Shown: positions 3,774 through 55,781 of the stretch, one piece after another
Numbering within the stretch: the stretch's first letter is position 1
Layout of the letters: every line of letters starts with the position of its first letter
Source of the DNA: a virus
IMG/VR virus record: IMGVR_UViG_3300046513_000221
Coordinates: 1 to 64,000 of that record
Length of the DNA stretch: 64,000 bases
Reading direction: 5' to 3' (one strand)
Program-made: the position numbers and the translations under genes
The notes under the pieces: generated by a model
Database searches by the model: none
Seen by the model: only the letters and a program-made list of their open reading frames with translations
Told to the model about the DNA's origin: nothing

Positions 3774-4485
3774 TTTTCTGTGTTCCCAAATGTGAGTGAT
3801 TACAAAAAATAAGAGAGATGGCCCGATGCCGAAGCACCGAGCCTCTCAACTGCTTCCCTTTTCTGGTGGAGTGGGTCGCTATCTTCTTCTCGTCTGTTGC
3901 TACGTTGGATTTTGAGGTACAGCTGTGTCGTGTGTACTGCCGATACTGCCTTTTCGACCGTGTCCAGTCTACGTTTGGGTTCCACAGGCCACCATTTCGC
4001 CTGAATCGTTAAGCACCGCCTCGTGGCGGCTCTCTGGGTGATGTGATGAGCGCGTTTCAGCCCCATCCGGTACTCGCCCGGTACGTTACTGTGCTACGAG
4101 TCATAGGGAGGAAACCATTTGTCCGTGTCCCTACGAAGTTGATCCCTCAGTCCCCGACGGTCTGAAGAATTTTGATGCAAGAAGTGAGGTTGAGGTGGGT
4201 AGCTTAAAGGCTTCTTCTCCGCTCGTGTGAAGGGGTGGAGAGAAAGGACGCCTCCCTCCTACCCGGAGAGTGGATCCCAATTAGGTGCCTCAGCGAATCG
4301 ATAAGCTGACCCACCGAGGCGAGAACGGTTCTCGAACTAGGTTCGATCCCCATTGGACCGGATTAACGGTAACCCTTTCGGGCTGCTTGAGAACGGGGGT
4401 TCCGTGGAATTCCCCGTAGTTGTTAGATGAACCTTTCAGTCCATCATCGATATAATATATCAACAAGTGACCTGCAGATACGGTC

Positions 4486-9371: not shown

Positions 9372-10168
9372 ACGAAGCGGATCCTTTTGATGGAGGTGTT
9401 TGTGATGAGCTGCTCGTGCATATCTTCAACCTTGCGATCAGGCATCACGACGCTGAGGGTAGAGGTAAGATCTTTGATAATGAAGCTACCATTGACGAGT
9501 ACGTGGTTCAGAATGTGGTACATGCGCTCACCGGGTTCATCAATGTTGGCGCATGTGATGCTCATCCAACTATCGACATCTGCTCGCATGGCAAGTGCGA
9601 AACGATCAGGGTAGTTGAACGCCAGTTCGGCGACTTTGATGCGGTACTCCATCTCCTCTCGGTGTTCATTCATCAGACGATGGACGAACATGCCGCCGTG
9701 GTTGTAGGAGAGGGCTTTGCCCAGAGTCTGCCAGCGGTTAGGGTGGAAGACGAGCAGACGCTTGTTGCCGGGGTTCCTCTCCCAACCGTCACATCCCGCC
9801 AGCCACTCGGCGTTGTCCACATCGTGCTTCGGGTCGTTTAGCTGCCCGATCAGCGCCTCGCTGAAACGGTAGATCGAGTGGAAGTCGCGTTCCCGGATGT
9901 GCTGACCCAGTGCTTCTTTGTAGGAGGAACGGATCAGCCCTGCCGGGATCTTACCGCGAATGATCTCCGCATCGGGATTATCGATGGTACTGGGGATGAC
10001 GCGGGTCACCTCCGGTGCGTCCAGTGCAGCCACGGGGTTGCCAGGAACCGCACTGGACGGCTTACCGAACCCGGTTGGCACGAAGCCGTGGTTGACACCG
10101 TCGATGGCGCTTACGGTCACGTTGTTGTAAGCTTGTGCTTCACCGGGAAGACTTACCTTTTGATTCAT
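9368..10168 (-). CDS. tandem paralogue family member 4 with about 100-aa N-terminal extension (266 aa)
   Basis: Motifs NRWQTLGKA, ELAFNYPDRF, MYHILNHVL; AAGGAAAAG RBS; ATGA overlap with the next gene. Confidence 0.65.
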   Translation of the reverse strand: MNQKVSLPGEAQAYNNVTVSAIDGVNHGFVPTGFGKPSSAVPGNPVAALDAPEVTRVIPSTIDNPDAEIIRGKIPAGLIRSSYKEALGQHIRERDFHSIYRFSEALIGQLNDPKHDVDNAEWLAGCDGWERNPGNKRLLVFHPNRWQTLGKALSYNHGGMFVHRLMNEHREEMEYRIKVAELAFNYPDRFALAMRADVDSWMSITCANIDEPGERMYHILNHVLVNGSFIIKDLTSTLSVVMPDRKVEDMHEQLITNTSIKRIRFV

Positions 10169-10243
10169 GTTGCTTTTCCTTTACCTTCGGTTTCTTTACG
10201 TTTCCCATCTGGCGGCAGTGATCGCACTTGTCAGAGCACTTCT

Positions 10244-10759
10244 TCATGCTTCGTCAGCACCTATGGATTTTGCGGTCGGGAACGGCCAGGCCGCGCACGA
10301 TGCGGCCTGAGCCTTGCGCTTCGCCACCTCGGAGACCTTGGTCATGTACAGCTTCACATCGCGGGAAGCCAAGAGCTTCAGCAAAATGAAGCAACACATG
10401 ACCTCAGTGTCCTCGATACCGTGAGGGATCACCATCGGCTTGGAGGTGTCCATATCCTCCAGATAGATGCCGTCGCCGAACTTGACGCCGGTGTGCATCT
10501 CGTTGCCAATCATGTAGACAACGTCGAAGCTCTTGGCAAAAACGCGATCGGACGCGGATCGCGCCATGTTGATCATCGCTTTCAGCCTATCGGTATCGTT
10601 CGATGCATCGAACCACGGAGTCAGCTTATCGCGGATGTCTTGCATGATATTTTCGCGACCATAGTGCAGCGTACCTGCCACCATTGTGGCGTTACCGGTC
10701 TTCCACTTGTAGGGAATGACTTCGCTGTCGGGCTTTTGATCGATTTCGGTAGTTTGCAT
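10244..10759 (-). CDS. hypothetical protein (171 aa)
   Basis: Real start is MQTTEID at 10757-10759 with AAGGAAGTACC RBS; the listed 230-aa version has a spurious N-terminus. Confidence 0.55.
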   Translation of the reverse strand: MQTTEIDQKPDSEVIPYKWKTGNATMVAGTLHYGRENIMQDIRDKLTPWFDASNDTDRLKAMINMARSASDRVFAKSFDVVYMIGNEMHTGVKFGDGIYLEDMDTSKPMVIPHGIEDTEVMCCFILLKLLASRDVKLYMTKVSEVAKRKAQAASCAAWPFPTAKSIGADEA

Positions 10760-10787
10760 GGTACTTCCTTTCAATTCTGATTGGACT

Positions 10788-10994
10788 TCATTTCTTTTTC
10801 TTTTCCCACAGACCCGTCTGCTCGTTCTTCTCGTAGCCAGACTTAACGGCGGTCCATGCCGTCTTGAAGCAGACGCTCTCATCGAGTTTCCGATCGTGAG
10901 CGGCGTTGAAAGCATGCATGAAGATCTCTTGAGCATGCTCCGGCAGAACGTGCTGGACGTTCGCCGGTAGGTCGTCGATACTATTGTAGGGCAT
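10788..10994 (-). CDS. ChaB-like protein (68 aa)
   Basis: MPYNSIDDLPANVQHVLPEHAQEIFMHAFNAAHD ... KTAWTAVKSGYEK matches the ChaB family signature; AAGGAGAG RBS. The listed ORF begins 20 codons upstream. Confidence 0.6.
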   Translation of the reverse strand: MPYNSIDDLPANVQHVLPEHAQEIFMHAFNAAHDRKLDESVCFKTAWTAVKSGYEKNEQTGLWEKKKK

Positions 10995-11007
10995 GATACT
11001 CTCCTTG

Positions 11008-11862
11008 TTATGGAGTGAAATCAAAGACCTTCGAAGCACAGTAGCGCAGTTCACGCACGAAGGCCGCTTCTGCCGCCGTTCTCACGGACGGTGATTCCAG
11101 GCGCAACTGATTGCAGATACGGGCCGTCTGCCGGAGACGTCCGTAGGCCCAGCGACTCACCACCGCCACCGAGTCGTAGTGGCCCTTCAAGGCACGGATG
11201 CAGTTCTTCCGTACGGCGTCATCCAAGGTAGGACTCTGACGATGGACGGAGTTGAGGTACTTCACCATGAACTGCTGGAGCTGTACCTCGTTCAAGCTGC
11301 TCTGCTCCGGAGTGGCCTGAATGATGATCGACTGCGCCAGAGCGGAGCCGAAGTCAACGTCCAGATCGTCGGGATGACTGATGTATGTGTCACCGCCGTC
11401 CTTGGCGAACAGCACCGCGTAGAAGATGTCCGGCAGGTCATCTTCCTTGGCGATCGGGAATGGAATAACCTTGACGGCCATGCTACGCAGGTGGTCGTTG
11501 AAGGTCTGGATGCCGGTGTAGACCTCCCGGTCGTTCTCGTCCATCCCGCGCATCATGTCAGCGAACTTGCTGATGAACTCCCGACGATACGCCGGAATGA
11601 TGGCGATCGAGGAGAAGCTGAAACCGCAGTCCTCGCGGATGAAGCTCACCAGATCTTCGAAGCTCGAACCCATCTCAGGGTTGGAGCTGTTGAAAGCCAG
11701 CACATCGCAGGACATCGCGAACGCCAGCAGCTGGTTGTATTGGATGATCTCCTGATCCGGAGTCGCCAGCACGAACGGATACGACGACGGCTGCACCCCC
11801 GGATGGAAGATGAAGCTCTCGCCGAAGGGTACCATGTAGTACTCTTGGTCTTTGTCAGACAT
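11008..11862 (-). CDS. hypothetical protein (284 aa)
   Basis: Real start MSDKDQEYY at 11860-11862 with AGGAAAG RBS; the listed upstream extension is A/S/T-rich junk. Confidence 0.55.
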   Translation of the reverse strand: MSDKDQEYYMVPFGESFIFHPGVQPSSYPFVLATPDQEIIQYNQLLAFAMSCDVLAFNSSNPEMGSSFEDLVSFIREDCGFSFSSIAIIPAYRREFISKFADMMRGMDENDREVYTGIQTFNDHLRSMAVKVIPFPIAKEDDLPDIFYAVLFAKDGGDTYISHPDDLDVDFGSALAQSIIIQATPEQSSLNEVQLQQFMVKYLNSVHRQSPTLDDAVRKNCIRALKGHYDSVAVVSRWAYGRLRQTARICNQLRLESPSVRTAAEAAFVRELRYCASKVFDFTP

Positions 11863-12531: not shown

Positions 12532-13389
12532 TTAATCGTTCGAAGTTTCCTTACCGATTTCGCTGTCTTTACCCTGACGGAGCGAAGCCTCGGCGATCAC
12601 CAGCACGGCCTTCAGCTCATCCAGCGTATACTCGCCGTCGAGCCATACGCGACCGCCCTTGCCGGGGCTGACGTACGGCAGACCGGACTTGCAGATGGAG
12701 CCACCGCCGTTGGAGCGCTCGCGGAACTCCTCCTTGGCCTGAGACAGCGACATCGACTTGCCGAGGCAGAAGGTGTGCTCGGTGTCCATGTTGAAGCCCG
12801 GTTGACCGATGCCGGTCAGCATTGGGATGCCCACGAAGTCGCCCGGCTGAGGGATGTTCATGTCCTTGAACACATCATCCCACGTACCGCCCTGAAATTT
12901 GAGAGGCGGATGCTTGTAGGCTTGACCGGGATCGGTTGCCAGTTTGTCAACGATGGGAGTACCGGCGAAGTCTGCCGGGTCGAAGTCCAGCAGCTTGATC
13001 TTGTGAGGGTACATGAAGTTGATGCTCAGGTCGCCGACCGGCGAAGCCTGACTGTCCGGCACGATCTCGAAGCCGTTCTCGCGCTCCATGCGATCGAAGA
13101 TGTGGCGTGCATCCGGTTCATTCTCCGCGTGGCAGAAGAGATCGGTGTACTGACTACGGGTCACCTTGTGCGGACGGCGCTCGATCTGCTCGGTGGAGAT
13201 GACCACTTCGAGATCCTTGTTAACGCGGCTTTCGCTGATGCTCTTCTGGAGAGCACCTTGGATGTCCTGCGGACGGATGTGGGTGGTGTAACCCTTACCT
13301 TTGAGAAGGATGTCGATGACGTGCGCTACTTGCTGACGATTCGAACCTTCGCCGGAGGTCACATGGACGTGTACTTTTTCTTTTTGCAT
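12532..13389 (-). CDS. hypothetical protein (285 aa)
   Basis: Start MQKEKVHVHV at 13387-13389 with AAGGGGA RBS, directly downstream of a terminator. Confidence 0.55.
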   Translation of the reverse strand: MQKEKVHVHVTSGEGSNRQQVAHVIDILLKGKGYTTHIRPQDIQGALQKSISESRVNKDLEVVISTEQIERRPHKVTRSQYTDLFCHAENEPDARHIFDRMERENGFEIVPDSQASPVGDLSINFMYPHKIKLLDFDPADFAGTPIVDKLATDPGQAYKHPPLKFQGGTWDDVFKDMNIPQPGDFVGIPMLTGIGQPGFNMDTEHTFCLGKSMSLSQAKEEFRERSNGGGSICKSGLPYVSPGKGGRVWLDGEYTLDELKAVLVIAEASLRQGKDSEIGKETSND

Positions 13390-13401
13390 TTCGATCCCCT
13401 T

Positions 13402-13432
13402 AAAAAAAGTTGGACGGGCGAACCCGCCCAAC
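13402..13432 (-). terminator. rho-independent terminator (GTTGGGCGGG-UUCG-CCCGTCCAAC followed by a T7 run on the minus strand)
   Basis: 9-bp stem with one mismatch, UUCG tetraloop and A7 on the plus strand, 6 nt after the stop of the pilin-like micro-gene. Confidence 0.65.
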
Positions 13433-13437
13433 TGGTA

Positions 13438-13575
13438 TTACATGAAGCTGGTGATCAGGTTCTTGATCATCGGCCAGAATTTTTCAACCGCGATGGTGCC
13501 GACGATGCCAATGATGGCGAGGACGACGAGCAGTTCGATCAGCGTGAAGCCGTCGTTATTAGGACGCTGCAGCAT
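13438..13575 (-). CDS. type IV prepilin-like micro-protein (45 aa)
   Basis: Not in the ORF track (<60 aa). Minus strand encodes MLQRPNNDG|FTLIELLVVLAIIGIVGTIAVEKFWPMIKNLITSFM. Perfect AAGGAGG RBS 6 nt before the ATG. Has the class III signal peptide: short basic leader, G-1, F+1, E+5, hydrophobic alpha-1 helix. Confidence 0.5.
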   Translation of the reverse strand: MLQRPNNDGFTLIELLVVLAIIGIVGTIAVEKFWPMIKNLITSFM

Positions 13576-14083
13576 CGGAAGCCTCCTTCTTGTTGCTCTC
13601 GACGATCACGGTGGTGATGTTGTAGCCGAAAGCAGCCAGTGGTTGCAGGAACAGACGGAAGCCAGCCTCGTTGCGCTGAGGATTATCGTCCAGGAACTCG
13701 ACTTCAATCGATTCCAGACCGAGCGCGGCAACCAGCTTGTCGGTTTCAGCCTTCAGACCGAAAATGGAAATCCATGCCTTGAAGGAGTCGATTCCGGTCG
13801 AGTGCTGACCGATCTCTTCCATGCTTCCCGGACGGGTGGTTTGCTCGTTGTGCAGGATGTCGCCGATCGCCTTAATCGCATCGGTGACATCCTTGGAGAT
13901 TTCCTTCTCCGATACCACGCCGGACGTGACCAGCTTGTGGATACCGTACCACAGCATCGAGGTCAGGTACGAGTGTACCTTGTACACGGAGTCCGAGACC
14001 GGTACCTCGCGGTCGAAGATGGAAGTCAGAGCGAAATGCTCCGGGGTGCCCAGACGGATCTGGAGCTTTTGAATCAGAGTCAT
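13559..14083 (-). CDS. hypothetical protein (174 aa)
   Basis: ATG verified at 14081-14083. Confidence 0.55.
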   Translation of the reverse strand: MTLIQKLQIRLGTPEHFALTSIFDREVPVSDSVYKVHSYLTSMLWYGIHKLVTSGVVSEKEISKDVTDAIKAIGDILHNEQTTRPGSMEEIGQHSTGIDSFKAWISIFGLKAETDKLVAALGLESIEVEFLDDNPQRNEAGFRLFLQPLAAFGYNITTVIVESNKKEASDAAAS

Positions 14084-14100
14084 GCGTGTTTCCTTGGCGA

Positions 14101-14134
14101 ATTGATAATACCCTAGACCTGCAAAGGTCTAGGG
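14101..14134 (-). terminator. terminator hairpin CCCTAGACC-N6-GGTCTAGGG
   Basis: Perfect 9-bp inverted repeat 10 nt after the stop of 14145..15557; A/T-rich flank. Confidence 0.5.
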
Positions 14135-14144
14135 CGATTTACTT

Positions 14145-15557
14145 TTAGGCAGCTGCCTTGTCGGTGTTGCCACCGATGCGGGACATGACGTTGTCCAGCA
14201 GAGCCTTGCCTTCGGTGGTGCCGCCCAGAGCGGTGACCATGCTGCCGATGGCGCTACCGCCCTTACCGGAGAACATGTCCATCAGGTTGTTGACACCGCC
14301 CTTGATGTCGCCGCCGTTCGCCACGACGGTCATCTTGGCATGGCCCATTGCAGCAGCCATTGCGATGCCAACTTCCTTGTTTGCCGCGACCTGCTCGATG
14401 CTGATCAGGTAGGTCTGGTAGCCCTCGTCGGAGCCGATCTTCTCGGCCAGCGCGATCTGCGCTTCGACAGGAGCCATCAGCGACGCTTTCTGAGCAGCCG
14501 CTTCGGCGGTACCCTTGGCAGTGATACCTTCAGCGTTCTTCAGTGTTGCCTGCAGTTCACCGTCGGCGCGCAGGGTGGCGGCTTCTTTCTCAGCCGTCGC
14601 ATTGGTAACGCGAACCGACTTCTCGGCTTCGGCGTTCACGGTGGCGACTTCCTTGTTTTGAGCTGCCACGATCACTGCGGTCGCCTTGTTGATCTCGGCC
14701 TTCTTGACGGCGTTGACCGACTCGACGGCCATGTTGGCTTCGGCGGTGTTCTTGGCTTCAGCTGCGATACGCTGTTCGGCTTTTTGCTGCTCGATACCGA
14801 TGTCCTGCTGGGTGGTAGCGGAGCGCATACCGACCTCGCGATCCATGTCCTGCTTCGACAGGGCGATGGCGCGGGACTTCTCGATCTCAGCGGTCTCAGC
14901 GGTCTGCTGATTGGCGGCGATGGCTACGCGGGACTCGCGGTCGATGCGCGACTGTTCCTTGCGCATGATGTTGGCGATCACGTTCGAGCCGGGAGCATCG
15001 CGCAGATCCATGAACTCGATGGTCTTCACGGTGGTTACGCCCCACTCCTTCAGCTGCGCCAGTACCTCTTCGGTGAACTGCGAACCCAGCGACGAACGGG
15101 CTTCCATGATCTCTTCCAGAGTGTTGGTCGCCAGAATGCGACGAACAGCACCTTGGATGATCTGCTTCAGTTGGCTGCGCAAATCTTCAACGGAGGTCAC
15201 GCGCTGCGCAGCCAAGTTCGACTGATCGATACGGAAGAAAGCCGCGACGTCAACAACGAACGGCAGACGAGCGGAGTCGTACGCCTCGTAGTCTTTCAGA
15301 TCGATGGTGAAGTTCGATTCCGGCAGCTTGATCACGGTCAGGCCGACGACAGGGATCCAGCTCGGCCACGCGTAGTAGACGTTACCGGAGTCCTTGCTGT
15401 TGCGACCGTACGAGGTCGCGCCCAACTTGTTCTGGACAATGTGGACCATGTTGGTCGGTACGACGACGCGCAGGTTCAGCGCCCACTTGACGGTGAACAG
15501 CGCGATGATTGCCAGAATGATGACTGCGACCAAAATTACGATACCCAGAATTTCCAT
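14145..15557 (-). CDS. SPFH/band-7 (flotillin-like) membrane protein (470 aa)
   Basis: N-terminal TM helix; SPFH-like core (FTIDLKDYEAYDSARLPFVVDVAAFFRIDQ...); long Ala/Glu/Lys-rich coiled-coil; Gly-rich C-terminus. Architecture of flotillin/YqiK. Confidence 0.65.
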   Translation of the reverse strand: MEILGIVILVAVIILAIIALFTVKWALNLRVVVPTNMVHIVQNKLGATSYGRNSKDSGNVYYAWPSWIPVVGLTVIKLPESNFTIDLKDYEAYDSARLPFVVDVAAFFRIDQSNLAAQRVTSVEDLRSQLKQIIQGAVRRILATNTLEEIMEARSSLGSQFTEEVLAQLKEWGVTTVKTIEFMDLRDAPGSNVIANIMRKEQSRIDRESRVAIAANQQTAETAEIEKSRAIALSKQDMDREVGMRSATTQQDIGIEQQKAEQRIAAEAKNTAEANMAVESVNAVKKAEINKATAVIVAAQNKEVATVNAEAEKSVRVTNATAEKEAATLRADGELQATLKNAEGITAKGTAEAAAQKASLMAPVEAQIALAEKIGSDEGYQTYLISIEQVAANKEVGIAMAAAMGHAKMTVVANGGDIKGGVNNLMDMFSGKGGSAIGSMVTALGGTTEGKALLDNVMSRIGGNTDKAAA

Positions 15558-15685
15558 TTTGTTTCTTTCTACTTTTGTCCTTGATTTATGGGATATTCGA
15601 AGGGAAGCCCGTCAGGGTTGTTTCCACTCCGATGACCTGCCCTGCAGGTCTACACCGCCCTCTGTGGAGCGGACCATGTTCTGTC

Positions 15686-16012
15686 TTACATCGACTTCAG
15701 AATCTGCAAGGACATCGCCTGTGGATTCTTCTTCGTCATGATCTCGATCGCCGTCTTCTTGACGCCGATCCATGCCGTCGCGGACAGCATGCTTGGGTAA
15801 TCCGCCAGCTTGCTCGCCCAGCGCAGTCCGGTACCCTCGGTACGGGCCTTGGCCTCGACGATGATCTCGTCGATTTCATTGGGGAAGATTGCGCAGTTGT
15901 ACAGGCGCACGCGCATGTTGGACTCCACGGTCTCCGGAGCCTTGAGGTCCGGCAGTTGGATGCCCGGATCTGCGGTCAGGTCGGCGTTACTCTTCGGGTA
16001 CTGCAGTGCCAT
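15686..16012 (-). CDS. hypothetical protein (108 aa)
   Basis: ATG verified. Confidence 0.5.
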   Translation of the reverse strand: MALQYPKSNADLTADPGIQLPDLKAPETVESNMRVRLYNCAIFPNEIDEIIVEAKARTEGTGLRWASKLADYPSMLSATAWIGVKKTAIEIMTKKNPQAMSLQILKSM

Positions 16013-16296
16013 TACGGGATTTCCTTCGCCATCAGTTGTTGCTTGATAATTCCGCTCATATCTTCTTGCAGAATGCCGTCGAGCTTGTAGTTGGCATTCT
16101 CCGGAGTGGACTTCGAGAGGCGGCGATAAGTGTCCATCATGTCATTCCCCAACTTCAGCACCTCGTCGCTAGGCATCTCGATCGGGATCGGCTGCGGCAT
16201 GTTGAGCTTGCCGGAGACGGTCGATGAAGGTACATCGCGAGGATTGACTCGTACAGTACGGGTGTTGATCCAAACGGTTTTTTCTTGATTACTCAT
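16012..16296 (-). CDS. hypothetical protein (94 aa)
   Basis: AAGGAAG RBS + ATG. Confidence 0.5.
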   Translation of the reverse strand: MSNQEKTVWINTRTVRVNPRDVPSSTVSGKLNMPQPIPIEMPSDEVLKLGNDMMDTYRRLSKSTPENANYKLDGILQEDMSGIIKQQLMAKEIP

Positions 16297-16388
16297 CTTA
16301 CTTCCTTACTCGTTGTGAAAAGCACGGGCGCTAACCCGCTCCCAGCCCAACTCCGCTGGCCTAAGTCTTTGACTCTCAGCCTCGTTTT

Positions 16389-16398
16389 AATTATATAT
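16389..16398 (-). promoter_or_regulatory. AT-rich promoter-like motif (ATATATAATT on minus strand)
   Basis: One copy of a recurring intergenic motif; 93 nt upstream of the 16012..16296 start. Confidence 0.3.
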
Positions 16399-16422
16399 GA
16401 CACAACGCTCAGAAGATTCCGT

Positions 16423-16887
16423 TCAGTGGAATCTCGTGTAGGGCGTCCTTACGTGCTCCGACAGGAAGTACGGCTTATGGGTCAGCTGACCGATAAGGCA
16501 ATTCTCCATGATCTTGTAGGGACGAACGTTCGGGTCGTACATGAAGACGTTGTTCATCTTCGAGTCGATCCGACCGTCGTTCTTCATCAGGAAGAAGCGT
16601 CCGGGATTGTTGACCAGCTGCTCGATGTTCGTCATGAGACCCTTGATGTAGGGCTCACCGATCTTCTTGACGAACATCTCCGGCTTGGGTAGCGCACGCG
16701 GCCCCGGATAGGTCGAGTACGCCAGCATCCGGGTCAGCTCCGTCAGGATATCATCCTTGAACTTGAATGCACCGCTCAAGATCTTCTCCTTTATGGCGGG
16801 GTGGAACGATAGAACGGTACGCAGAAGGTCGCATCGCGACTGTTGGCACCACGACTCATGATCTTGGCTTCCTTCTCGGACATCCAA
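16423..16887 (-). CDS. hypothetical protein (start uncertain)
   Basis: The listed start overlaps the preceding gene by about 97 nt in another frame. The internal ATG at about 16728 is an alternative start. Confidence 0.4.
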   Translation of the reverse strand: MDVREGSQDHESWCQQSRCDLLRTVLSFHPAIKEKILSGAFKFKDDILTELTRMLAYSTYPGPRALPKPEMFVKKIGEPYIKGLMTNIEQLVNNPGRFFLMKNDGRIDSKMNNVFMYDPNVRPYKIMENCLIGQLTHKPYFLSEHVRTPYTRFH

Positions 16888-17540
16888 ACATCCGGCTCAC
16901 GTCCGGCACCTTCCTTATACCACAGTGCCAGCCAGAAGTTACCTTCCGGCGTCTTGGTCACGGCGAAACCGGCGATAGGGACGTCGTCCTCATCGAAGAT
17001 CATCGAGTAGTTGATCGTCGCACTGGCACCGGTAGGATCGGCGGTCAGGACGCTGGTCCATTCCGTCTCGAAGAGTAGAAGGAAGTCCTCGCCGTGGCGT
17101 ACGGCCACCTTCTCCTCGTCGCTGTTGTACTTGTAGAGGACTGACTTGTTCGCCATCGCCCACGTTTCCTTGCCAACGGTGTTCTCAACCGTGTTCTTGC
17201 GATCGGCGTACTTGGGATCTTTCATCATCGCGCCGAGCCAAGCCTGAAGGTTCTCTTCGGTCGCACGCTCACCCTCGTGGTGATCGATGATGTAGTTGGG
17301 CAGATCCTCCCACGCGGCACCGCCGAAGCTGCGCAGGACGCTCTCGGCACGTTGAGCGCGACGCGCCCACTTGTGACGATTCTCCACCAAGCAGGGGATG
17401 CACTCCTTCATCACGCCGACCATCAGCATGGATTCCGGCTTACCGGCGTCGGGGTGAGGGTTGTCGGACATCAGATATCCGCACTTAGGGCAGTGGCCCG
17501 GTTCGACGAATACGCCATTCTCTTTATTTACAGCCTGCAT
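16791..17540 (-). CDS. zinc-ribbon protein (about 249 aa)
   Basis: HCPKCGY ... CIPC four-Cys motif; real start MQAVNKENG with TTTGGGAGCAACC RBS. Confidence 0.55.
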   Translation of the reverse strand: MQAVNKENGVFVEPGHCPKCGYLMSDNPHPDAGKPESMLMVGVMKECIPCLVENRHKWARRAQRAESVLRSFGGAAWEDLPNYIIDHHEGERATEENLQAWLGAMMKDPKYADRKNTVENTVGKETWAMANKSVLYKYNSDEEKVAVRHGEDFLLLFETEWTSVLTADPTGASATINYSMIFDEDDVPIAGFAVTKTPEGNFWLALWYKEGAGREPDVWMSEKEAKIMSRGANSRDATFCVPFYRSTPP

Positions 17541-17560
17541 GGTTGCTCCCAAAGTTGAAA

Positions 17561-20303: not shown

Positions 20304-20312
20304 ATAATATAT
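20304..20312 (-). promoter_or_regulatory. AT-rich promoter-like motif (ATATATTAT on minus strand)
   Basis: Intergenic; 43 nt upstream of the 19782..20261 start. Confidence 0.35.
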
Positions 20313-24388: not shown

Positions 24389-24397
24389 ATAATATAT
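24389..24397 (-). promoter_or_regulatory. AT-rich promoter-like motif (ATATATTATA on minus strand)
   Basis: Intergenic; 65 nt upstream of the 23767..24324 start. Confidence 0.35.
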
Positions 24398-24714: not shown

Positions 24715-25281
24715 TTACACAATGTTGGGGTTGTCTACATGGGCGAAACGCATGTTGCTCGGATGCGGAACGCCCTCGATTGCCACGGTACCGCGACCCT
24801 TGGAACTGAGGTACTTCTCCAGATGGTTGCGACGCACATAGGCGTGGCCGGGAATGCCCGGAGGCAGGGGATCGCCTTCCTTCACGCCGGTCTGGTCAAT
24901 CTCGACAACACCGACGCGACCTGCGGTCAGGATGACCTTCTGGCCCTCGTAGGTACCCATAGCGACAGCGCTGGTCTGCTTGCCACTGATGACGAAGCCG
25001 TCGTGGGCGATCAGGACGTCCTCATCCGTGGTCTCACGGACGAAGAAGAACTTCGGGTTCGAGAAGTTCGTCTCGGTGCGCTCGGAATTCTGGAAATAAC
25101 GAATCCCGGTGATCATCACCTCGACAGTGGCGTCGCGTTCCGGCATCTGCCGCATACGGTCGAACAGGCACAGAATGCCCACGTACTCGTAGCTGACTTT
25201 GCCGTCAACGTTCTCCACCCCGCTCAGTTTCGCAATGACCTTATCCTTCTCGAAACGGTCGGGTTTGGTCGTTACTTTCAT
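24715..25281 (-). CDS. hypothetical protein (188 aa)
   Basis: ATG verified. Confidence 0.55.
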   Translation of the reverse strand: MKVTTKPDRFEKDKVIAKLSGVENVDGKVSYEYVGILCLFDRMRQMPERDATVEVMITGIRYFQNSERTETNFSNPKFFFVRETTDEDVLIAHDGFVISGKQTSAVAMGTYEGQKVILTAGRVGVVEIDQTGVKEGDPLPPGIPGHAYVRRNHLEKYLSSKGRGTVAIEGVPHPSNMRFAHVDNPNIV

Positions 25282-30917: not shown

Positions 30918-30953
30918 TAGTTTCCCTTTAGATTCTAGTCACAGTCAAACCTA

Positions 30954-30962
30954 TAATATATC
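30954..30962 (-). promoter_or_regulatory. AT-rich promoter-like motif (ATATATTATAGG on minus strand)
   Basis: Intergenic; 37 nt upstream of the 30672..30917 start. Confidence 0.35.
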
Positions 30963-38708: not shown

Positions 38709-38718
38709 TATTATATAT
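38709..38718 (-). promoter_or_regulatory. AT-rich promoter-like motif (ATATATAATA on minus strand)
   Basis: Intergenic between the beta' gene stop and 38580. Confidence 0.3.
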
Positions 38719-43919: not shown

Positions 43920-43928
43920 ATAATATAT
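43920..43928 (-). promoter_or_regulatory. AT-rich promoter-like motif (ATATATTATTTT on minus strand)
   Basis: 53 nt upstream of the 43118..43867 start. Confidence 0.35.
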
Positions 43929-45849: not shown

Positions 45850-47535
45850 CTATGCCAGCAGCGCCTCCAGATCGACGATGACGTCGTTGACGTCAGGCAG
45901 ACCGAGGAGTTCCTTGCCGATTCGGATGATATCGTTCTCGGCGATGAGGCCGGGGATGATATCGTCGAGTTCCGGACGCTTGTCGCACATGATCTTGCCG
46001 ATCATGGTGTCCGCATCGATGTTACCTGCCAGAATGATCGATGGATACATGGACGATAAGTCCTCGTCCACAATATTCTCGAAGATGCGATTGGAGCGCT
46101 TGCCATCCTTGCTGATGACGATGCCGACGGCGTCCATCATCTCAGGCAGAGCCACGAATGCACCCTTGAACTTCTTCTTCTCTTCCTCTTCCTTCAGACG
46201 GTTGTGGTTGTTGGACAGGAGGAAACCCTCCTTCTCCAGAACCATCGCCGCGAAGTTACGGATCGAGGTGGTCTTGGTCATGACCTTGTTGAAGCGGGTC
46301 GCGGTCATCAGGCCCATGTTGTACAGCAGGTCGATGTCGTTGTTCTGCTCTTCGAGCTGATACAGACGGAACGAGTCATACATCGAGTACTTGAGGAAGC
46401 TCTCGTAGTTGATGTACATCGCGTCCGTGATCTCGCCCTCGTACTCATACTTACCTTCGATCCCCTCGTCGATCAGGATCGCATCCAGAGCGTACGATTC
46501 GCGCTTGCCCATCGTCGCCCGGATCTTGGCGAACTGCTCCTGCATCTCGACGAACTGCGAGTAACCTGCAACCTCCAGCTTGGTGTTCCGCTTGGTGAAG
46601 TCGGTTGCGAAGGAATCGTTCTCGATCCATGTGGACTTGTACGGCAGCTCCTTTGGACACATCACCTCTTCAGGCTTTAGCTTCAGTCGGAGCATACGGT
46701 TCTTCATGGTTACCAAGTCGAACCCGGCGTTCCAAGCACCCATGAAGTCGGGTTTGTCACGCTTCACGATCTTGAAGAAGTCCTTCAGCAGCTCCGCCTC
46801 ATCGTCGTAGATGTGTACCTCGATCGCACGCACCTTGGCGTAATCGATCTTGGAGTTTGGATCCTTCTCGTTCATCTCGTCGATGACCTGAGAGATCCAC
46901 TCATCGCCGTATTCTGCGAATGCTTCAAGGAAGTCCATCTGAGATTGGTTGTTCTCGTTCTTCAGGATGAACGAGTGGATGGTCATCGTCGGCTGGTGGA
47001 TGTACGAGATCATCGACACCGGACATGGAGCCAGCTCTGGTTCAGGAAACTCCCTGTACTCCGACACATCGACCTCAATATCGTAGAACGCCTTGGTGAT
47101 CGGCAGGACTGCGATCTGGTGACGGTTGCGGTCGAGCCACTCACGCGTCTTGTAGTCTGCCAGATCCATGTCCGTCAGGTGCAGGTTGTTGTCCTTGTGG
47201 AGGTTACGGAGTTCCTTCCACTTACCGTTGTTCTTACAAGCCTTGTAGAAGTCCATCTGGTCGGAGGCCTTAGCCATCTCATACTGCAGATTGTCGAACT
47301 TCACGGTTATCGGCTCGACCTTGTCGAACTCGATGTAATTCGCTGCCTTCTTCAGCCTGAACTCGTCCTTGGTAATGTAGAACGTGTAGGACGGATCCTC
47401 CTCGATCTCGAATTGCTTCTTGATCGTACCATCCGGTTGAAGTACGCTCTCCACATAGATGATCTTGGAGTGCTGGCGATTGTTGTCGTCACGATCGCGA
47501 ACGTGCAAGACGTTCGATAGCTGTTTTCCGCTCAT
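45850..47535 (-). CDS. family-B DNA polymerase, N-terminal part (3'-5' exonuclease domain + polymerase motif A, 561 aa)
   Basis: Exo I YDIEVD; Exo II WNAGFDLVTM; Exo III YSMYDSFRLYQL; motif A DLSSMYPSIILAGN. The protein ends about 70 aa after motif A. Confidence 0.75.
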   Translation of the reverse strand: MSGKQLSNVLHVRDRDDNNRQHSKIIYVESVLQPDGTIKKQFEIEEDPSYTFYITKDEFRLKKAANYIEFDKVEPITVKFDNLQYEMAKASDQMDFYKACKNNGKWKELRNLHKDNNLHLTDMDLADYKTREWLDRNRHQIAVLPITKAFYDIEVDVSEYREFPEPELAPCPVSMISYIHQPTMTIHSFILKNENNQSQMDFLEAFAEYGDEWISQVIDEMNEKDPNSKIDYAKVRAIEVHIYDDEAELLKDFFKIVKRDKPDFMGAWNAGFDLVTMKNRMLRLKLKPEEVMCPKELPYKSTWIENDSFATDFTKRNTKLEVAGYSQFVEMQEQFAKIRATMGKRESYALDAILIDEGIEGKYEYEGEITDAMYINYESFLKYSMYDSFRLYQLEEQNNDIDLLYNMGLMTATRFNKVMTKTTSIRNFAAMVLEKEGFLLSNNHNRLKEEEEKKKFKGAFVALPEMMDAVGIVISKDGKRSNRIFENIVDEDLSSMYPSIILAGNIDADTMIGKIMCDKRPELDDIIPGLIAENDIIRIGKELLGLPDVNDVIVDLEALLA

Positions 47536-47614: not shown

Positions 47615-47727
47615 ATTTATTATTTATAATTATTTAAATTCGCGACACGTACGCGCGCGCGAGAAAGTCATTCGAGCTCCACCAGCTGACCGGAAGTCCA
47701 CTGAAAATGTGATGCTTAACAACCCAA

Positions 47728-47736
47728 TAATATATA
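47728..47736. promoter_or_regulatory. AT-rich promoter-like motif in divergent region (AATAATATATA)
   Basis: Between the 47535 (-) start and the 47777 (+) start; the following AT-rich block 47610-47660 also looks promoter-like. Confidence 0.3.
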
Positions 47737-49979: not shown

Positions 49980-51563
49980 ATGTCTATCAGCTACGATACC
50001 GTCCACCAAAGCACCGTGGGCAGCAAAGTCTCCGCCATTCTGGAAAAACTGCCAGCGATCAACGAATCGTTCGCAGCAGAAGGCCTGAACGTCCTGAACG
50101 AAGGTTTCTCGGAAGTTGCTGCTAACAAGCACTACTACGAAGACTACGTCACCAAGCTGAGCGAAGGTCTGGACCCGGTAGCTGCCGCCCAGTTCCAATC
50201 GCTGGCCGACACCACCCGTACCCAGATCCTGCAAGAAAGCTCGATCTCGGGCATCAACCCGATCACCGCACTGGCGCTGCCGATGCTGCGCGTGGCATGG
50301 CCAAAAACCTCGATCCGCGAAGGCTTCCCGACCGAACCGGTCATGCAGCCGAAGTTCAAGGTGACCTGGCTGAAGCCGTACTTCATCGACGCTTCGACCA
50401 ACGAAAAGATCTTCATGCCTGCTGGCATCAGCAAGCGTAAAGACCTGTTCAAGCTGAAAATGCTGCAGGAAACCCCAATTCTGGTCGGCGCTGCCGGTCT
50501 GAACGGCTACGACCTGCTGACCCCTGTCGGCGCGAACGCATCGCTGGGCGACGAAATCGATCCGAACTTCTCGATCAGCGGCGTGACCTTCAAGGCACTG
50601 GACGCAACCGGCGCTAACCCGGTCAACGTCACCGTGGACGTCGAGTTCGAACTGGACACCAACATCGACGTGATCGAAGGCACCGCCTCCGGCAAGCACA
50701 CCGATGGTACCGACAACAAAGTTCGCGTGTTCGCGAAACTGAACCGTCGTGACGGCCAGATGGACGTCGTCGGTCTGGGCCGCGAAGTCGTCAGCGTAAC
50801 CGTCAAGGGCTACCTGTCGTCCGAAGCCAACAACCGCGCTACCCAAGTCGGTTTCGACGTTACGTCGGACGAGACCGTCATCGGTACCGGCCAACCGATC
50901 GAATCGCCGATCAACATCCAGCAGATGACCGACACGATGGCGATGTACAACATCGACTCGACCGTCAAGACGCTGGAAATCATGTCCACCGCGCTGGCAC
51001 AATCGACCGATCTGGAAGGCATCGACTTCCTGGAGCGTCGCTTCATGCTGGGCCTGAAACTGCAGACCGAGTTCGACGTGAACCCACCTGCCAACTTCCA
51101 GCTGGGCAACACCGCATGGCGCGAAGAGATCAAGATCAAGATCGACAATCTCGTGACCCGTCTGATGCAGTCCACCAACATCACCGCTGGCTCGGTCGTG
51201 ATCTTCGGCAACCCGCTGGACACGCAGATCCTGTCGAACGTGAAGTGGATGTACTCCGGCGAAGACCAGCCTAACGGCGTCAACATCGAGTACCGCGTCG
51301 GTAACTACACCTCCGGCGTGACGAACTACAAGGTTCTGTCGTCGTTCAACTTCGGTCAAGGCGAGCTGTACGTCGCGTTCCTGCCATCCACCCCGGATCA
51401 GGCGACGCTGAAGTACTACCCGTACTCGTTCAACGTTGTGCGCGGCACCGCCTCGCCTAACCGCACGTTCAACCCTGCTGTTCAGATGATCAAACGCCAC
51501 GTCTTCAAGGAGTACTCCTCGATGGTCGGCAAGATCAAGATCAAGAACAACAACGGCCTGTAA
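49980..51563 (+). CDS. putative major capsid protein (527 aa)
   Basis: Extreme codon bias (CTG, CCG, GGC, ATC ... dominate). AAGGAAG RBS; strong terminator immediately downstream; position in the structural module. Fold not verified. Confidence 0.65.
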   Translation: MSISYDTVHQSTVGSKVSAILEKLPAINESFAAEGLNVLNEGFSEVAANKHYYEDYVTKLSEGLDPVAAAQFQSLADTTRTQILQESSISGINPITALALPMLRVAWPKTSIREGFPTEPVMQPKFKVTWLKPYFIDASTNEKIFMPAGISKRKDLFKLKMLQETPILVGAAGLNGYDLLTPVGANASLGDEIDPNFSISGVTFKALDATGANPVNVTVDVEFELDTNIDVIEGTASGKHTDGTDNKVRVFAKLNRRDGQMDVVGLGREVVSVTVKGYLSSEANNRATQVGFDVTSDETVIGTGQPIESPINIQQMTDTMAMYNIDSTVKTLEIMSTALAQSTDLEGIDFLERRFMLGLKLQTEFDVNPPANFQLGNTAWREEIKIKIDNLVTRLMQSTNITAGSVVIFGNPLDTQILSNVKWMYSGEDQPNGVNIEYRVGNYTSGVTNYKVLSSFNFGQGELYVAFLPSTPDQATLKYYPYSFNVVRGTASPNRTFNPAVQMIKRHVFKEYSSMVGKIKIKNNNGL

Positions 51564-53145: not shown

Positions 53146-53157
53146 GTATATATAATA
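53146..53157 (+). promoter_or_regulatory. AT-rich promoter-like motif (TATATATAATAT) upstream of the DNA polymerase C-fragment gene
   Basis: 55 nt upstream of the 53212 ATG in a divergent intergenic region. Confidence 0.3.
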
Positions 53158-55176: not shown

Positions 55177-55181
55177 CCGTC

Positions 55182-55220
55182 AGGGAGGGGCTTCGGCCTC
55201 TCCCTTTCTTTTTTTTTTTA
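55182..55220 (+). terminator. terminator AGGGAGGGGC-UUCG-GCCTCTCCCT + T15
   Basis: 10-bp stem, UUCG tetraloop, very long T-run. Confidence 0.8.
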
Positions 55221-55236
55221 TGACAGAAAACTAAAA

Positions 55237-55674
55237 ATGAACCAAGTCACAGTAATCAATCCCGACCTGTCCAACATCGATCTGGTCGCGGACCAAGCAA
55301 ACAGAATCAAGATCAGCGCTATGGTCACCTACTTCGAGACCGACGAGGGAAAGATTCTGTTACAGGAACTCAACGCCAAGAAGTTCGAATACGTCCTCGT
55401 CAACGAGGCGGAGACGAATCTGGTTGATCCGACCTTCGAGGGTAACATCGTGAACTCCGCCATCAACGTTATCACGGATGGCGAGACTTCCATGTACTCC
55501 CTCATGCAGGAGCCGGATCGCAACAAGATCGTCAGGATCTACTTCCTGCCCTACGCTACAACCTCGTCGGTCTTCCGGGAGTTCATCGACGAGTACCTGT
55601 CCGATGATGGTCTGGACGACGAGGATGAGATCTACACGCCTCCCTACATGGTCGAAGGCAAGTACCTGAACTAA
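55237..55674 (+). CDS. hypothetical acidic protein (145 aa)
   Basis: ATG verified. Confidence 0.5.
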   Translation: MNQVTVINPDLSNIDLVADQANRIKISAMVTYFETDEGKILLQELNAKKFEYVLVNEAETNLVDPTFEGNIVNSAINVITDGETSMYSLMQEPDRNKIVRIYFLPYATTSSVFREFIDEYLSDDGLDDEDEIYTPPYMVEGKYLN

Positions 55675-55679
55675 ACGAA

Positions 55680-55716
55680 AACCGGGATGAGCTCACTTTG
55701 GCTCATCCCGGTTTAA
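55680..55716 (+). terminator. terminator AACCGGGATGAGC-N7-GCTCATCCCGGTT
   Basis: 13-bp stem after 55237..55674; weak T-tail. Confidence 0.5.
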
Positions 55717-55781
55717 TACTCTACCTATCGATTTACGGCCATCAGCCAACATAAGAATAACCTAATTCCAATGGAATACCT

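What the first reader, a model, noticed from the sequence alone, without database searches (positions are those of the whole stretch)
14145..15557. Phage-encoded SPFH/flotillin-like membrane scaffold
A 470-aa protein with an N-terminal TM helix, an SPFH-like core, a long AEAK-type coiled coil and a Gly-rich tail. This matches flotillin/YqiK architecture. A phage flotillin could organise membrane microdomains during infection, for example at assembly, lysis or exclusion sites. It is flanked by the pilin-like micro-gene and small unknown genes, not by an NfeD partner.
Basis: partly seen in the sequence, partly recalled or inferred. Interest (0 to 1): 0.5.

Follow-up and report, generated by a model that had tools for sequence, protein, structure and literature searches.

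The report
Phage flotillin-like SPFH membrane protein
A jumbo phage carries a real gene for a membrane-anchored SPFH ("flotillin-like") scaffold protein of a type already annotated, but never functionally studied, in dozens of other large phages, so it is a sound but fairly ordinary finding.

Summary
Window 14145-15557 (-) is a genuine 470-aa gene. It has an N-terminal transmembrane helix, a Band_7/SPFH core (Pfam E=4e-17, above the curated cut-off), about 210 residues of Ala/Glu-rich helix and a conserved Gly-rich tail. The predicted fold matches flotillin-1/2 cage subunits best and over the full length. The window is a high-GC relative of the phiR1-37/AR9 jumbo phages.

The protein is not a canonical flotillin. 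None of 60 family members has the Pfam Flot domain that E. coli YqiK has. The FloT model scores 38 bits against a 700-bit cut-off. No NfeD/YqiJ partner exists in the window or in 77 related loci.

It belongs to a compact "solo" SPFH clade shared by scattered bacteria and many large phages. Fifty-one deposited phage genomes carry it, some already labelled "flotillin" or "SPFH".

It is under purifying selection (dN/dS 0.27). It lies downstream of an AR9-type early promoter motif. It most likely forms a cytoplasm-facing cage on the host inner membrane early in infection. Its client or purpose is unknown.

A prepilin-type micro-gene lies nearby in four independent phage lineages, which is unexplained.

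Verdict: new member of a known kind; modest interest.

The parts
14145..15557 (-). SPFH (Band 7) membrane protein gene, 470 aa plus stop codon
   Evidence: ORF. GC3 0.77. Pfam Band_7 E=4e-17. 1523 or more homologues. dN/dS 0.27 against the sister contig.
15489..15548 (-). N-terminal transmembrane helix (residues about 4-23), inferred N-out/C-in
   Evidence: Hydropathy. AF2 helix 2-28. K+R on the C-terminal flank in 59 of 60 homologues.
14904..15464 (-). SPFH / Band_7 domain (residues 32-218)
   Evidence: Pfam. Alpha/beta core 31-187 in the model. Foldseek matches to stomatin and flotillin SPFH domains at rmsd 2.2-3.0 A.
14340..14981 (-). Long Ala/Glu-rich helical region (residues 193-406), the presumed cage wall and roof
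   Evidence: Composition. AF2 helices 193-271, 279-376 and 378-406. Aligns to the flotillin-1/2 helical region. About 90 residues longer than in QmcA.
14148..14339 (-). Conserved Gly-rich C-terminal tail (residues 407-470)
   Evidence: 10 Gly in the last 50 residues. Invariant or near-invariant N414, G416, D417, G421, G433, G434 and G450. Low model confidence. No Flot domain hit.
14111..14134 (-). GC-rich hairpin directly after the stop codon (CCCTAGACC-TTTGC-AGGTCTAGGG), a possible terminator or RNA-stabilising element
   Evidence: Sequence. The scan lists it on the + strand; the palindromic stem reads the same on both strands.
16390..16398 (-). ATATATAAT-(6N)-G motif, AR9/phiR1-37-type early (virion RNAP) promoter-like site. 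It is the nearest one upstream of the SPFH gene.
   Evidence: 9 sites against 0.04 expected. All 9 have G six nt downstream. AR9 consensus AAATATATATTAT-(6N)-G+1 (PMC5312081).
16012..16296 (-). 94-aa gene of unknown function, first gene after the early-promoter-like site
   Evidence: ORF. Called on the JGI contig. Syntenic in the sister contig. No Pfam hit.
15686..16012 (-). 108-aa gene of unknown function immediately upstream of SPFH
   Evidence: ORF. 69% identity and dN/dS 0.28 against the sister contig. No Pfam hit.
13559..14083 (-). 174-aa lineage-restricted ORFan immediately downstream of SPFH; not NfeD-like
   Evidence: Only 2 homologues among 5.8 billion proteins. The model is mainly helical with 3 strands. 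No fold match at E<=0.001. No Pfam hit.
13438..13575 (-). 45-aa prepilin-type (class III signal, G|FTLIE) micro-gene; association with SPFH unproven
   Evidence: Pfam N_methyl E=1.8e-10. Motif and synteny conserved in the sister contig. It is the only such motif in the 64 kb window.

Best explanation
Shown: the gene encodes a single-pass membrane protein of the SPFH (stomatin/prohibitin/flotillin/HflK-C) superfamily. It belongs to a compact, NfeD-less 'solo' clade found in scattered bacteria and in many large phages. It is carried by a high-GC relative of the phiR1-37/AR9 jumbo myoviruses and is kept under purifying selection.

Inferred from fold and topology: the N-terminal helix inserts N-out/C-in. 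The SPFH domain then sits on the cytoplasmic face of the host inner membrane. As in every solved full-length SPFH assembly (flotillin, stomatin, HflK/C, QmcA, prohibitin, erlin), the long helical region bundles many copies into a ring or dome that fences off a patch of membrane. The length of the helical wall is flotillin-like.

Inferred from context: the gene lies about 0.8 kb downstream of an AR9-type early (virion RNA polymerase) promoter motif, in an accessory region of small genes. It is therefore most likely made early, as a host-takeover or fitness factor that reorganises or stabilises the inner membrane during the long jumbo-phage cycle. It may do this by caging particular host membrane proteins. 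It is unlikely to be part of the virion, assembly or lysis machinery. The client and the benefit to the phage are not known.
For: Family and fold:
- Band_7 scores above the curated cut-off, and 60 of 60 relatives hit Band_7.
- AF2 model, pLDDT 72.
- Foldseek top hits are flotillin-2/-1, E 5e-11 to 3e-10 over 411-441 columns. Stomatin, HflK/C, QmcA, prohibitin and erlin follow, all at E<1e-6.
- The PDB profile search finds QmcA at 6e-10 and flotillin-1 at 7e-5.
- SPFH proteins in general form oligomeric rings or domes (abstract of PMC12624060; PMC13086221).

Topology: positive charges lie on the C-terminal flank of the TM helix in 59 of 60 members.

Phage identity of the window.

Selection: 74.8% aa identity and dN/dS 0.27 against the syntenic sister contig, the best conserved gene of the block. 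GC3 is typical of the phage's genes.

Solo status:
- No NfeD among the neighbours.
- No neighbour family is conserved across loci.
- The Herbaspirillum copy sits among housekeeping genes.
- Only one SPFH ORF in the window.

Early expression:
- The motif ATATATWAT-(6N)-G occurs 9 times against 0.04 expected. The same motif also precedes both DNA polymerase genes.
- It matches the published AR9 early promoter.

Spread across unrelated large phages.
Against: - Oligomerisation and membrane localisation are not shown. The model is a monomer of only moderate confidence, with a low-confidence break at 271-280 and a low-confidence tail.
- Two hairpins lie between the upstream gene and SPFH, so read-through from the early promoter is an assumption. 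The motif-to-promoter equivalence is by analogy to AR9.
- No client, partner or phenotype is known for any phage SPFH.
- Bacterial SPFH mutants often show only subtle phenotypes.
- The closest isolates, phiR1-37 and AR9/PBS1, are not among the 51 phage records carrying the family, so the gene is dispensable for this phage type.
Confidence: 0.6

Rival explanations
1. It is a canonical bacterial flotillin (a FloT/YqiK orthologue) recently picked up from the host. It works as in the host, with the host's NfeD/YqiJ partner, to build functional membrane microdomains.
For: JGI and some GenBank records name relatives 'flotillin' or 'YqiK'. The NCBIfam FloT model aligns end to end, residues 12-426. 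Flotillins are the top structural match.
Against: E. coli YqiK has the Flot domain (E=6e-41), but 0 of 60 family members do. The FloT score is 38 bits against a 700-bit cut-off. BLASTP to YqiK aligns only the A/E-rich helix. hhalign places the clade equally far from YqiK and QmcA. No NfeD/YqiJ is present anywhere. Composition is fully ameliorated, and the gene is shared with a sister phage at 75% identity, so the acquisition is not recent.
Confidence: 0.08
2. It is an HflK/C- or QmcA-like modulator of host membrane proteases such as FtsH. The cage sequesters or shields the protease, so that phage or host proteins are stabilised during infection.
For: HflK/C-FtsH and QmcA cages are strong structural matches, and QmcA is the best PDB profile hit. 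This is a specific version of the client-caging idea and is compatible with the best explanation.
Against: There is no paired paralogue as in HflK/HflC. The inferred orientation is cytoplasmic, not periplasmic as in HflK/C. There is no sequence closeness to HflK/C beyond the shared fold. There is no evidence of any protease link.
Confidence: 0.12
3. It is part of an early envelope-modifying or superinfection-exclusion module, together with the nearby prepilin-type micro-protein. The module acts on type IV pilus or type II secretion machinery, or on incoming phage DNA transfer.
For: The prepilin-type ORF lies 570 nt downstream, and this arrangement is conserved in the sister contig. Prepilin-type ORFs lie within 2.3 kb of an SPFH gene in three other independent lineages: X1/BUDD, IMG/VR locus L024, and the 44RR group, which has a different SPFH class. 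The gene is in an early-type region.
Against: About 25 other viral loci of this family, 4 diverse loci of the lipoprotein class and 44 genome/MAG loci have no such ORF within 5-10 kb. The background density of such ORFs in big phages is unknown, so enrichment cannot be claimed. PADLOC gave no hit.
Confidence: 0.12
4. It is a functionless passenger gene (or a mis-called ORF) with no role in infection.
For: Distribution is sporadic. The closest isolates are not among the 51 phage records carrying the family. SPFH knock-outs in bacteria often have weak phenotypes.
Against: dN/dS is 0.27, and it is the best conserved gene in its block. Full-length conservation at 47-55% identity holds across at least five unrelated phage groups. 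Many residues are invariant, including in the tail. GC3 marks a real gene.
Confidence: 0.05

Closest known systems
Phage homologues of the same clade: Brevundimonas jumbo phages (e.g. Domovoi USN14831.1 'flotillin protein'), Xanthomonas phages X1/BUDD ('SPFH domain-containing protein'), Ralstonia phage RP13 ORF243, Vibrio Thalassavirus gp116 (e.g. AG74)
   Same: Same family over the full length, at 47-51% identity and 91-94% coverage. All hit Band_7 only. All are solo genes in accessory regions of small genes or tRNAs.
   Different: The phage lineages are unrelated (T5-like Demerecviridae, jumbo siphoviruses, other myoviruses), and no neighbours are shared. None has been studied functionally.
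Eukaryotic flotillin-1/flotillin-2 cage (PDB 9BQ2, 9L3G)
   Same: Best structural match, and the only one spanning the whole protein: the SPFH domain plus a very long helical wall. The profile hit to flotillin-1 covers residues 81-354.
   Different: Identity is 18-20%. There is no Pfam Flot domain. The anchor here is a true N-terminal TM helix. Flotillins are hetero-oligomers of two paralogues (entries 9bq2 and 9l3g hold both flotillin-1 and flotillin-2 chains), whereas only one gene is present here.
Bacterial flotillins E. coli YqiK and B. subtilis FloT
   Same: The order of parts is the same: N-terminal anchor, SPFH domain, A/E-rich helices. The helical regions align at 36% over 164 residues. 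The FloT model aligns end to end.
   Different: YqiK has the Flot domain and the YqiJ partner. This clade has neither. The FloT score is far below its cut-off.
E. coli QmcA-YbbJ (stomatin-type SPFH-NfeD cage, PDB 8Z5G)
   Same: Best PDB profile hit, E=6e-10. It forms a cage that protrudes into the cytoplasm (PMC13086221), the same side as the orientation inferred here.
   Different: QmcA is 305 aa. This protein has a helical region about 90 residues longer and no NfeD partner.
Short SPFH 'lipoproteins' of T5-like, T4-like and other phages (e.g. Aeromonas phage 44RR ORF098c)
   Same: Phage-borne SPFH proteins in early or accessory regions. They are very common, present in 740 phage records, and have been noted since 2006 (PMC1524935).
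   Different: They are about 270-315 aa, annotated as lipoproteins, and not detectably similar by tblastn to this clade.

Membership tests
SPFH / Band 7 superfamily | Sequence match to the Band_7 (PF01145) profile above the curated threshold | tested here: met
   63.3 bits against a 23.6-bit cut-off, E=4e-17. 60 of 60 relatives also match.
SPFH / Band 7 superfamily | SPFH alpha/beta fold | tested here: met
   Predicted core at 31-187. It matches solved SPFH domains with TM-score by target 0.74-0.85 and rmsd 2.2-3.0 A. This is a prediction, not an experimental structure.
SPFH / Band 7 superfamily | N-terminal membrane anchor followed by a C-terminal helical oligomerisation region | tested here: met
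   TM helix at about residues 4-23. Helices at 193-406.
SPFH / Band 7 superfamily | Assembly into a large ring or cage on a membrane | not testable with these tools
   Only monomer prediction is available. The claim is inferred from the solved homologues listed.
Flotillin family (flotillin-1/2, FloT, YqiK) | C-terminal Flot domain (Pfam PF15975) | tested here: not met
   YqiK hits it at 6.4e-41. The window protein has no hit at E<=1. 0 of 60 family members hit it.
Flotillin family (flotillin-1/2, FloT, YqiK) | NCBIfam FloT equivalog score | tested here: not met
   38.2 bits against a 700-bit cut-off.
Flotillin family (flotillin-1/2, FloT, YqiK) | Flotillin-length helical wall; whole-chain structural similarity | tested here: met
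   Flotillin-2/-1 are the top Foldseek hits over 411-441 columns. Global rmsd is very large because a monomer model is being compared with a subunit in its cage conformation.
Flotillin family (flotillin-1/2, FloT, YqiK) | Operon partner of the NfeD/YqiJ type (bacterial members) | tested here: not met
   No such Pfam hit in 10 neighbours. No YqiJ/YbbJ-like ORF in the window or 77 loci. The 174-aa neighbour is not an OB fold. The rest of the phage genome lies outside the window and could not be checked.
Flotillin family (flotillin-1/2, FloT, YqiK) | Localisation to detergent-resistant or functional membrane microdomains | not testable with these tools
   Needs fractionation or microscopy.
HflK/HflC | Two paralogous subunits encoded together | tested here: not met
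   The family profile finds only one SPFH ORF among 458 window ORFs.
HflK/HflC | N-in topology with a periplasmic SPFH body | tested here: not met
   The positive-inside rule gives N-out/C-in in 59 of 60 members. This is an inference, not an experiment.
Known anti-phage defence proteins (PADLOC) | Match to a defence-system profile | tested here: not met
   No family at E<=1.
PHROGs phage protein families (v4) | Match to a PHROG | tested here: not met
   No family at E<=0.01, although 51 GenBank phage records carry homologues.

The most novel reading that the evidence does not exclude
The long 'solo' SPFH protein and the neighbouring prepilin-type micro-protein may form a recurrent, early-expressed phage module. 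In this reading an SPFH cage on the inner membrane acts together with a pilin-like peptide processed by the host prepilin peptidase. Together they disable or re-purpose host type IV pilus or type II secretion machinery, or seal the membrane against superinfecting phages. The repeated, independent juxtaposition in four phage lineages, once with a different SPFH class, would then reflect function rather than chance.
Probability: 0.1. Interest if true: 0.65.

Novelty: new member of a known kind. Interest (0 to 1): 0.3.

Why it matters
SPFH proteins are universal membrane organisers whose roles in bacteria remain poorly defined. Phage-borne copies are listed in hundreds of genome annotations, yet none of the papers I read reports a functional test.

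This work narrows the problem to a compact clade with four properties: it lacks an NfeD partner, it faces the cytoplasm, it has flotillin-length helices, and it has spread among unrelated large phages under purifying selection. The gene is probably expressed early.

That gives a clean, single-gene handle on what an SPFH cage does for a cell or a virus. Several culturable carriers exist for knock-outs: Vibrio Thalassavirus, Xanthomonas X1, Ralstonia RP13 and the Brevundimonas jumbo phages.

For the window itself the result is mainly good annotation, not a new kind of system.

Tried and rejected
- Megablast of 13000-17000 against the phage collection found no DNA relative.
- PHROGs and PADLOC scans of the protein found nothing.
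- Exact-sequence look-up of the Vulgatibacter homologue P0011 found it not on record.
- The P0010 contig (329 kb, phage-like) has gene calls but no DNA available.
- tblastn with the X1 prepilin-type peptide found only X1 and BUDD, because short hydrophobic motifs are invisible to it. I switched to a regex scan.
- The first bootstrap tree, using Biopython's distance calculator, timed out. It was redone with numpy.
- One literature query was malformed. Another, on SPFH with exclusion or defence terms, returned nothing with SPFH in it.
- A single-sequence search for 44RR-type SPFH in IMG/VR found only close relatives.
- I searched for a conserved partner gene across 30 and then 77 loci. None was found beyond within-taxon synteny.
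- The 174-aa neighbour was tested as a cryptic NfeD. It is an ORFan with a mainly helical model and no significant fold match.
- No AR9-type late promoter motif (AACA-N6-T[A/G]) occurs in the 128-nt spacer upstream of the gene.
- No tRNA genes occur in the window.
- Readings considered and rejected: canonical flotillin orthologue, HflK/C pair, defence-system component, spurious ORF.
Full report
**1. The observation.**
It is the coding strand. Its third-position GC is 0.77, typical of this genome's genes, against 0.60 for the long antisense ORF. An independent gene caller made the same call on a near-identical JGI metagenome contig (L088) and on a 75%-identical sister contig (L032).

All four architectural elements are present:
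- A strongly hydrophobic N-terminal segment (19-residue Kyte-Doolittle means above 3), modelled as a helix at 2-28.
- A Band_7/SPFH domain at residues 32-218 (E=4e-17, 63.3 bits against Pfam's 23.6-bit cut-off).
- An Ala/Glu/Lys/Gln-rich stretch at 201-365 (23% Ala, 13% Glu), modelled as very long helices at 193-271, 279-376 and 378-406.
- A tail with 10 Gly in the last 50 residues, several of them invariant across 60 homologues.

**2. What the window is.**
PHROG hits identify split multisubunit RNA polymerase beta-type subunits, a split DNA polymerase, a major head protein, a tail sheath and a virion structural protein. The closest isolates are Yersinia phage phiR1-37 (major head 46%, RNAP beta' 45% identity) and then Bacillus phages AR9/PBS1 at about 36%. 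There is no nucleotide-level match in the phage collection. The window's GC is 51-60%. From my own knowledge, phiR1-37 and AR9 are low-GC genomes. The window is therefore an uncultured, high-GC member of that jumbo-myovirus group. None of those isolates is among the 51 phage records that carry the SPFH family, so the gene is an accessory acquisition in this lineage.

**3. Fold and family.**
An AlphaFold2 model built on a 60-sequence alignment (mean pLDDT 72) shows four parts: a TM helix, an alpha/beta core at 31-187, about 210 residues of helix, and a poorly defined tail.

Foldseek against the PDB ranks the flotillin-2 and flotillin-1 cage subunits first (E 5e-11 to 3e-10). These are the only targets that align across the whole chain (411-441 columns). 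Stomatin, HflK/C, QmcA, prohibitin and erlin follow, all at E<1e-6. Isolated SPFH domains superpose at 2.2-3.0 A, with TM-score by target 0.74-0.85.

Sequence searches of the PDB agree. The single sequence finds stomatin and QmcA at about 1e-4. The family profile finds QmcA at 6e-10 and flotillin-1 at 7e-5 over residues 81-354.

**4. Not a canonical flotillin.**
E. coli YqiK, taken from MG1655, carries Band_7 and also the Pfam Flot domain (E=6e-41). It sits beside its YqiJ partner. Several results separate the window protein from it:
- The window protein shows no Flot hit even at E<=1.
- None of 60 family members shows a Flot hit, while all 60 hit Band_7.
- The NCBIfam FloT equivalog scores 38 bits against a 700-bit cut-off, although it aligns end to end.
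- BLASTP to YqiK aligns only the compositionally similar helical region.
- Profile comparison puts the clade equally far from YqiK and from stomatin-type QmcA (both about 87% probability, E about 4e-6). Relative to QmcA, the helical region is about 90 residues longer.

The accurate description is a distinct SPFH clade with flotillin-like length and layout. It is not a member of the Flot-domain flotillin family.

**5. The clade.**
A search that read all 1.84 billion 50%-identity cluster representatives finds only 630 at E<=1e-3 and 147 at E<=1e-30. This is a compact group within a very large superfamily. The word-indexed search lists 1523 relatives, mostly about 460 aa and 50-57% identical. They include chromosomal copies in Vulgatibacter ('YqiK'), Burkholderia ubonensis and Herbaspirillum.

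In Herbaspirillum the gene sits alone among housekeeping genes (gltBD, L25, prs, ispE, lolB). Another copy lies in an ordinary bacterial context.

A pattern-limited scan of 185,579 species-representative genomes finds 44 loci in scattered taxa: Betaproteobacteria, Caulobacterales, Opitutales, Thermomicrobiales and several candidate-phyla MAGs. IMG/VR yields 24 viral loci, on contigs up to 455 kb. GenBank phages yield 51 records: 37 Vibrio Thalassavirus, plus Brevundimonas jumbo phages, Xanthomonas X1/BUDD, Ralstonia RP13 and an Erwinia phage. Some of these are already annotated 'flotillin' or 'SPFH domain-containing protein'.

In a neighbour-joining tree the viral and bacterial copies interleave. 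The window groups with its sister contig (100% bootstrap), then with three metagenomic proteins (91%), then with Vulgatibacter (100%). The backbone is unresolved. The pattern indicates repeated horizontal transfer. Its direction cannot be read from this tree.

**6. Solo gene.**
- None of ten flanking ORFs has an NfeD-type domain.
- E. coli YqiJ and YbbJ find nothing among 7721 ORFs from the window and 77 loci. This is a single-sequence test and therefore of limited sensitivity.
- No window neighbour recurs next to SPFH elsewhere.
- Recurrent neighbour families exist only within taxa.
- The window holds only one SPFH ORF.
- The 174-aa gene immediately downstream is an ORFan, known only from this phage lineage. 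Its model is mainly helical with three strands, and no fold match reaches E<=0.001. It is not an OB-fold NfeD.

**7. Topology and likely assembly.**
In 59 of 60 members the positive charges sit on the C-terminal flank of the TM helix (mean 2.08 against 0.03 K+R), and only about 5 residues precede it. By the positive-inside rule the protein is N-out/C-in, so the SPFH and helical body is cytoplasmic. QmcA's cage also protrudes into the cytoplasm (PMC13086221); from my own knowledge, YqiK and FloT also face the cytoplasm, and the HflK/C body is periplasmic.

Every solved full-length SPFH assembly among the structural matches is a ring or dome (PMC12624060 abstract; PMC13086221). A homo-oligomeric cage on the cytoplasmic face of the inner membrane is therefore the most probable physical form. 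This is an inference. No multimer could be modelled here.

**8. Selection and expression.**
Against the syntenic sister contig, SPFH is the best conserved gene of the block (74.8% aa identity, dN/dS 0.27). The 174-aa and prepilin-type genes are at about 52% identity and dN/dS about 0.6.

The window contains nine copies of ATATATWAT, against 0.04 expected. All nine are followed by G exactly six bases downstream. This matches the published AR9 early, virion-RNAP promoter AAATATATATTAT-(6N)-G+1. That paper also reports a conserved start site 6 nt downstream of the consensus in phiR1-37 (PMC5312081). The same motif precedes both DNA polymerase genes.

One site (16390-16398) heads the co-directional run 94-aa gene, 108-aa gene, SPFH. 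No other such site, and no AR9-type late motif, lies in between. Two hairpins lie in the 128-nt spacer and one lies just after the stop codon. Early expression is therefore plausible but not shown.

In other phages the gene likewise sits in accessory regions: among tRNAs in Thalassavirus, next to NAD-salvage genes in the Brevundimonas phages, and next to an ATP-grasp gene in X1. It is never in structural or lysis modules.

**9. Mechanism.**
Best-supported reading (overall confidence about 0.6): an early-made, cytoplasm-facing SPFH cage that reorganises or stabilises the host inner membrane, or sequesters particular membrane proteins, for the benefit of a large phage with a long cycle.

Rival readings:
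- Protease modulation in the manner of HflK/C or QmcA.
- Envelope modification or exclusion together with the prepilin-type peptide.
- A canonical flotillin borrowed from the host.
- A functionless passenger.

The last two are disfavoured by the membership tests and by purifying selection.

**10. What is known.**
Phage SPFH genes have been listed since 2006 (PMC1524935). They appear in recent genome papers only as annotations. [quoted passage not shown] Another files it under host-metabolism genes (PMC13384950). The 2021 comparative overview and the 2026 review of jumbo phages do not mention SPFH proteins.

BFVD holds SPFH-fold proteins from many phages and giant eukaryotic viruses. A second, short 'lipoprotein' SPFH class is present in 740 phage records. 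The finding is thus a new member of a known, uncharacterised kind.

**11. An unexplained side observation.**
The 45-aa ORF at 13438-13575 is a prepilin-type peptide: a leader ending in Gly, then FTLIELLVV... (N_methyl E=1.8e-10). It is the only such motif in the 64 kb window and is conserved in the sister contig.

Prepilin-type ORFs also lie close to SPFH genes in three other lineages:
- 2.3 kb from the SPFH gene in X1/BUDD.
- Directly upstream in IMG/VR locus L024, as three tandem ORFs of roughly 540-630 aa.
- 53 nt downstream of the different, lipoprotein-type SPFH gene in the Aeromonas phage 44RR group.

About 25 other viral loci of this family lack one. So do four diverse loci of the lipoprotein class and all 44 genome/MAG loci. 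The background density of such ORFs in big phages is unknown to me. I therefore treat this as a lead, with about 10% probability of a real functional module, and not as a result.

Noticed in passing
window 13438-13575 (-): A 45-aa prepilin-type micro-gene (MLQRPNNDG|FTLIELLVVLAIIGIVG...). It hits Pfam N_methyl at E=1.8e-10 and is conserved with its motif in the sister contig L032. The mature peptide would be little more than the hydrophobic pilin N-terminal helix.
   Followed up: partly
window 4452-4460, 16390-16398, 20304-20312, 24389-24397, 30953-30961, 38710-38718, 43920-43928, 47727-47735 (all -) and 53148-53156 (+): Nine ATATATWAT-(6N)-G sites (0.04 expected by chance), all with G six nt downstream. 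They match the published AR9/phiR1-37 early virion-RNAP promoter rule and precede both DNA polymerase genes and several small-gene clusters.
   Followed up: partly
whole window (1-64000): The window is a high-GC (51-60%) uncultured relative of the phiR1-37/AR9/PBS1 jumbo myoviruses (major head 46%, RNAP beta' 45% identity to phiR1-37). It has no nucleotide-level match in the phage collection and no tRNA genes in 64 kb.
   Followed up: partly
window 45850-47535 (-) and 53212-55176 (+): The DNA polymerase is split into two genes on opposite strands, about 6 kb apart, with the major head protein gene (49980-51563 +) between them. Each polymerase part follows an early-promoter-like motif.
   Followed up: no
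window 14111-14134 and about 15634-15650: GC-rich hairpins bracket the SPFH gene and share an AGACCT...AGGTC core: CCCTAGACC-TTTGC-AGGTCTAGGG after the stop codon, and GACCTGC-AGG-GCAGGTC in the upstream spacer. Similar CCCTAG-containing hairpins occur in other intergenic regions, for example upstream of 16791-17552 and 24715-25281.
   Followed up: no
window 10788-11054 (-): A small ChaB-domain protein (Pfam E=1.2e-18). It is also called, as 68 aa, on the near-identical JGI contig L088.
   Followed up: no
window 13559-14083 (-): A 174-aa ORFan between the SPFH gene and the prepilin-type gene. It has only two homologues among 5.8 billion proteins, both from this phage lineage. The C-terminal half is strongly conserved, and the model (pTM 0.67) has no significant fold match.
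   Followed up: yes
L024 3794-9133 (IMG/VR UViG_2903405734_000002, 215 kb): Three tandem paralogous ORFs of roughly 540-630 aa (stop-to-stop spans of 1.6-1.9 kb), each beginning with a prepilin-type signal (KGFTLLELLLVIG...). They lie directly upstream of that contig's SPFH gene (10001-11350).
   Followed up: no
L080 14998-16193 (Aeromonas phage 44RR2.8t, record 54997-56192): ORF098c (Band_7 'lipoprotein', 307 aa) is followed after 53 nt by ORF097c, a 72-aa prepilin-type protein. The pair is conserved in two related Aeromonas phages (L082, L083) but not in T5-like, Klebsiella T4-like, Vibrio or AsFcp_2 carriers of that SPFH class.
   Followed up: partly
phage collection: The short lipoprotein-type SPFH class is present in 740 of 50,697 phage records (T5-like Salmonella and Escherichia phages, T4-like Klebsiella, Aeromonas and Cronobacter phages, Proteus phage and others). 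It is mostly annotated 'hypothetical' or 'lipoprotein'.
   Followed up: partly
L046, L050, L057, L072, L073, L077 (genome contigs): Several homologues lie on contigs binned to Patescibacteria/Saccharibacteria MAGs. These may be mis-binned phage contigs and not genuine CPR genes; contig lengths are 20-98 kb.
   Followed up: no
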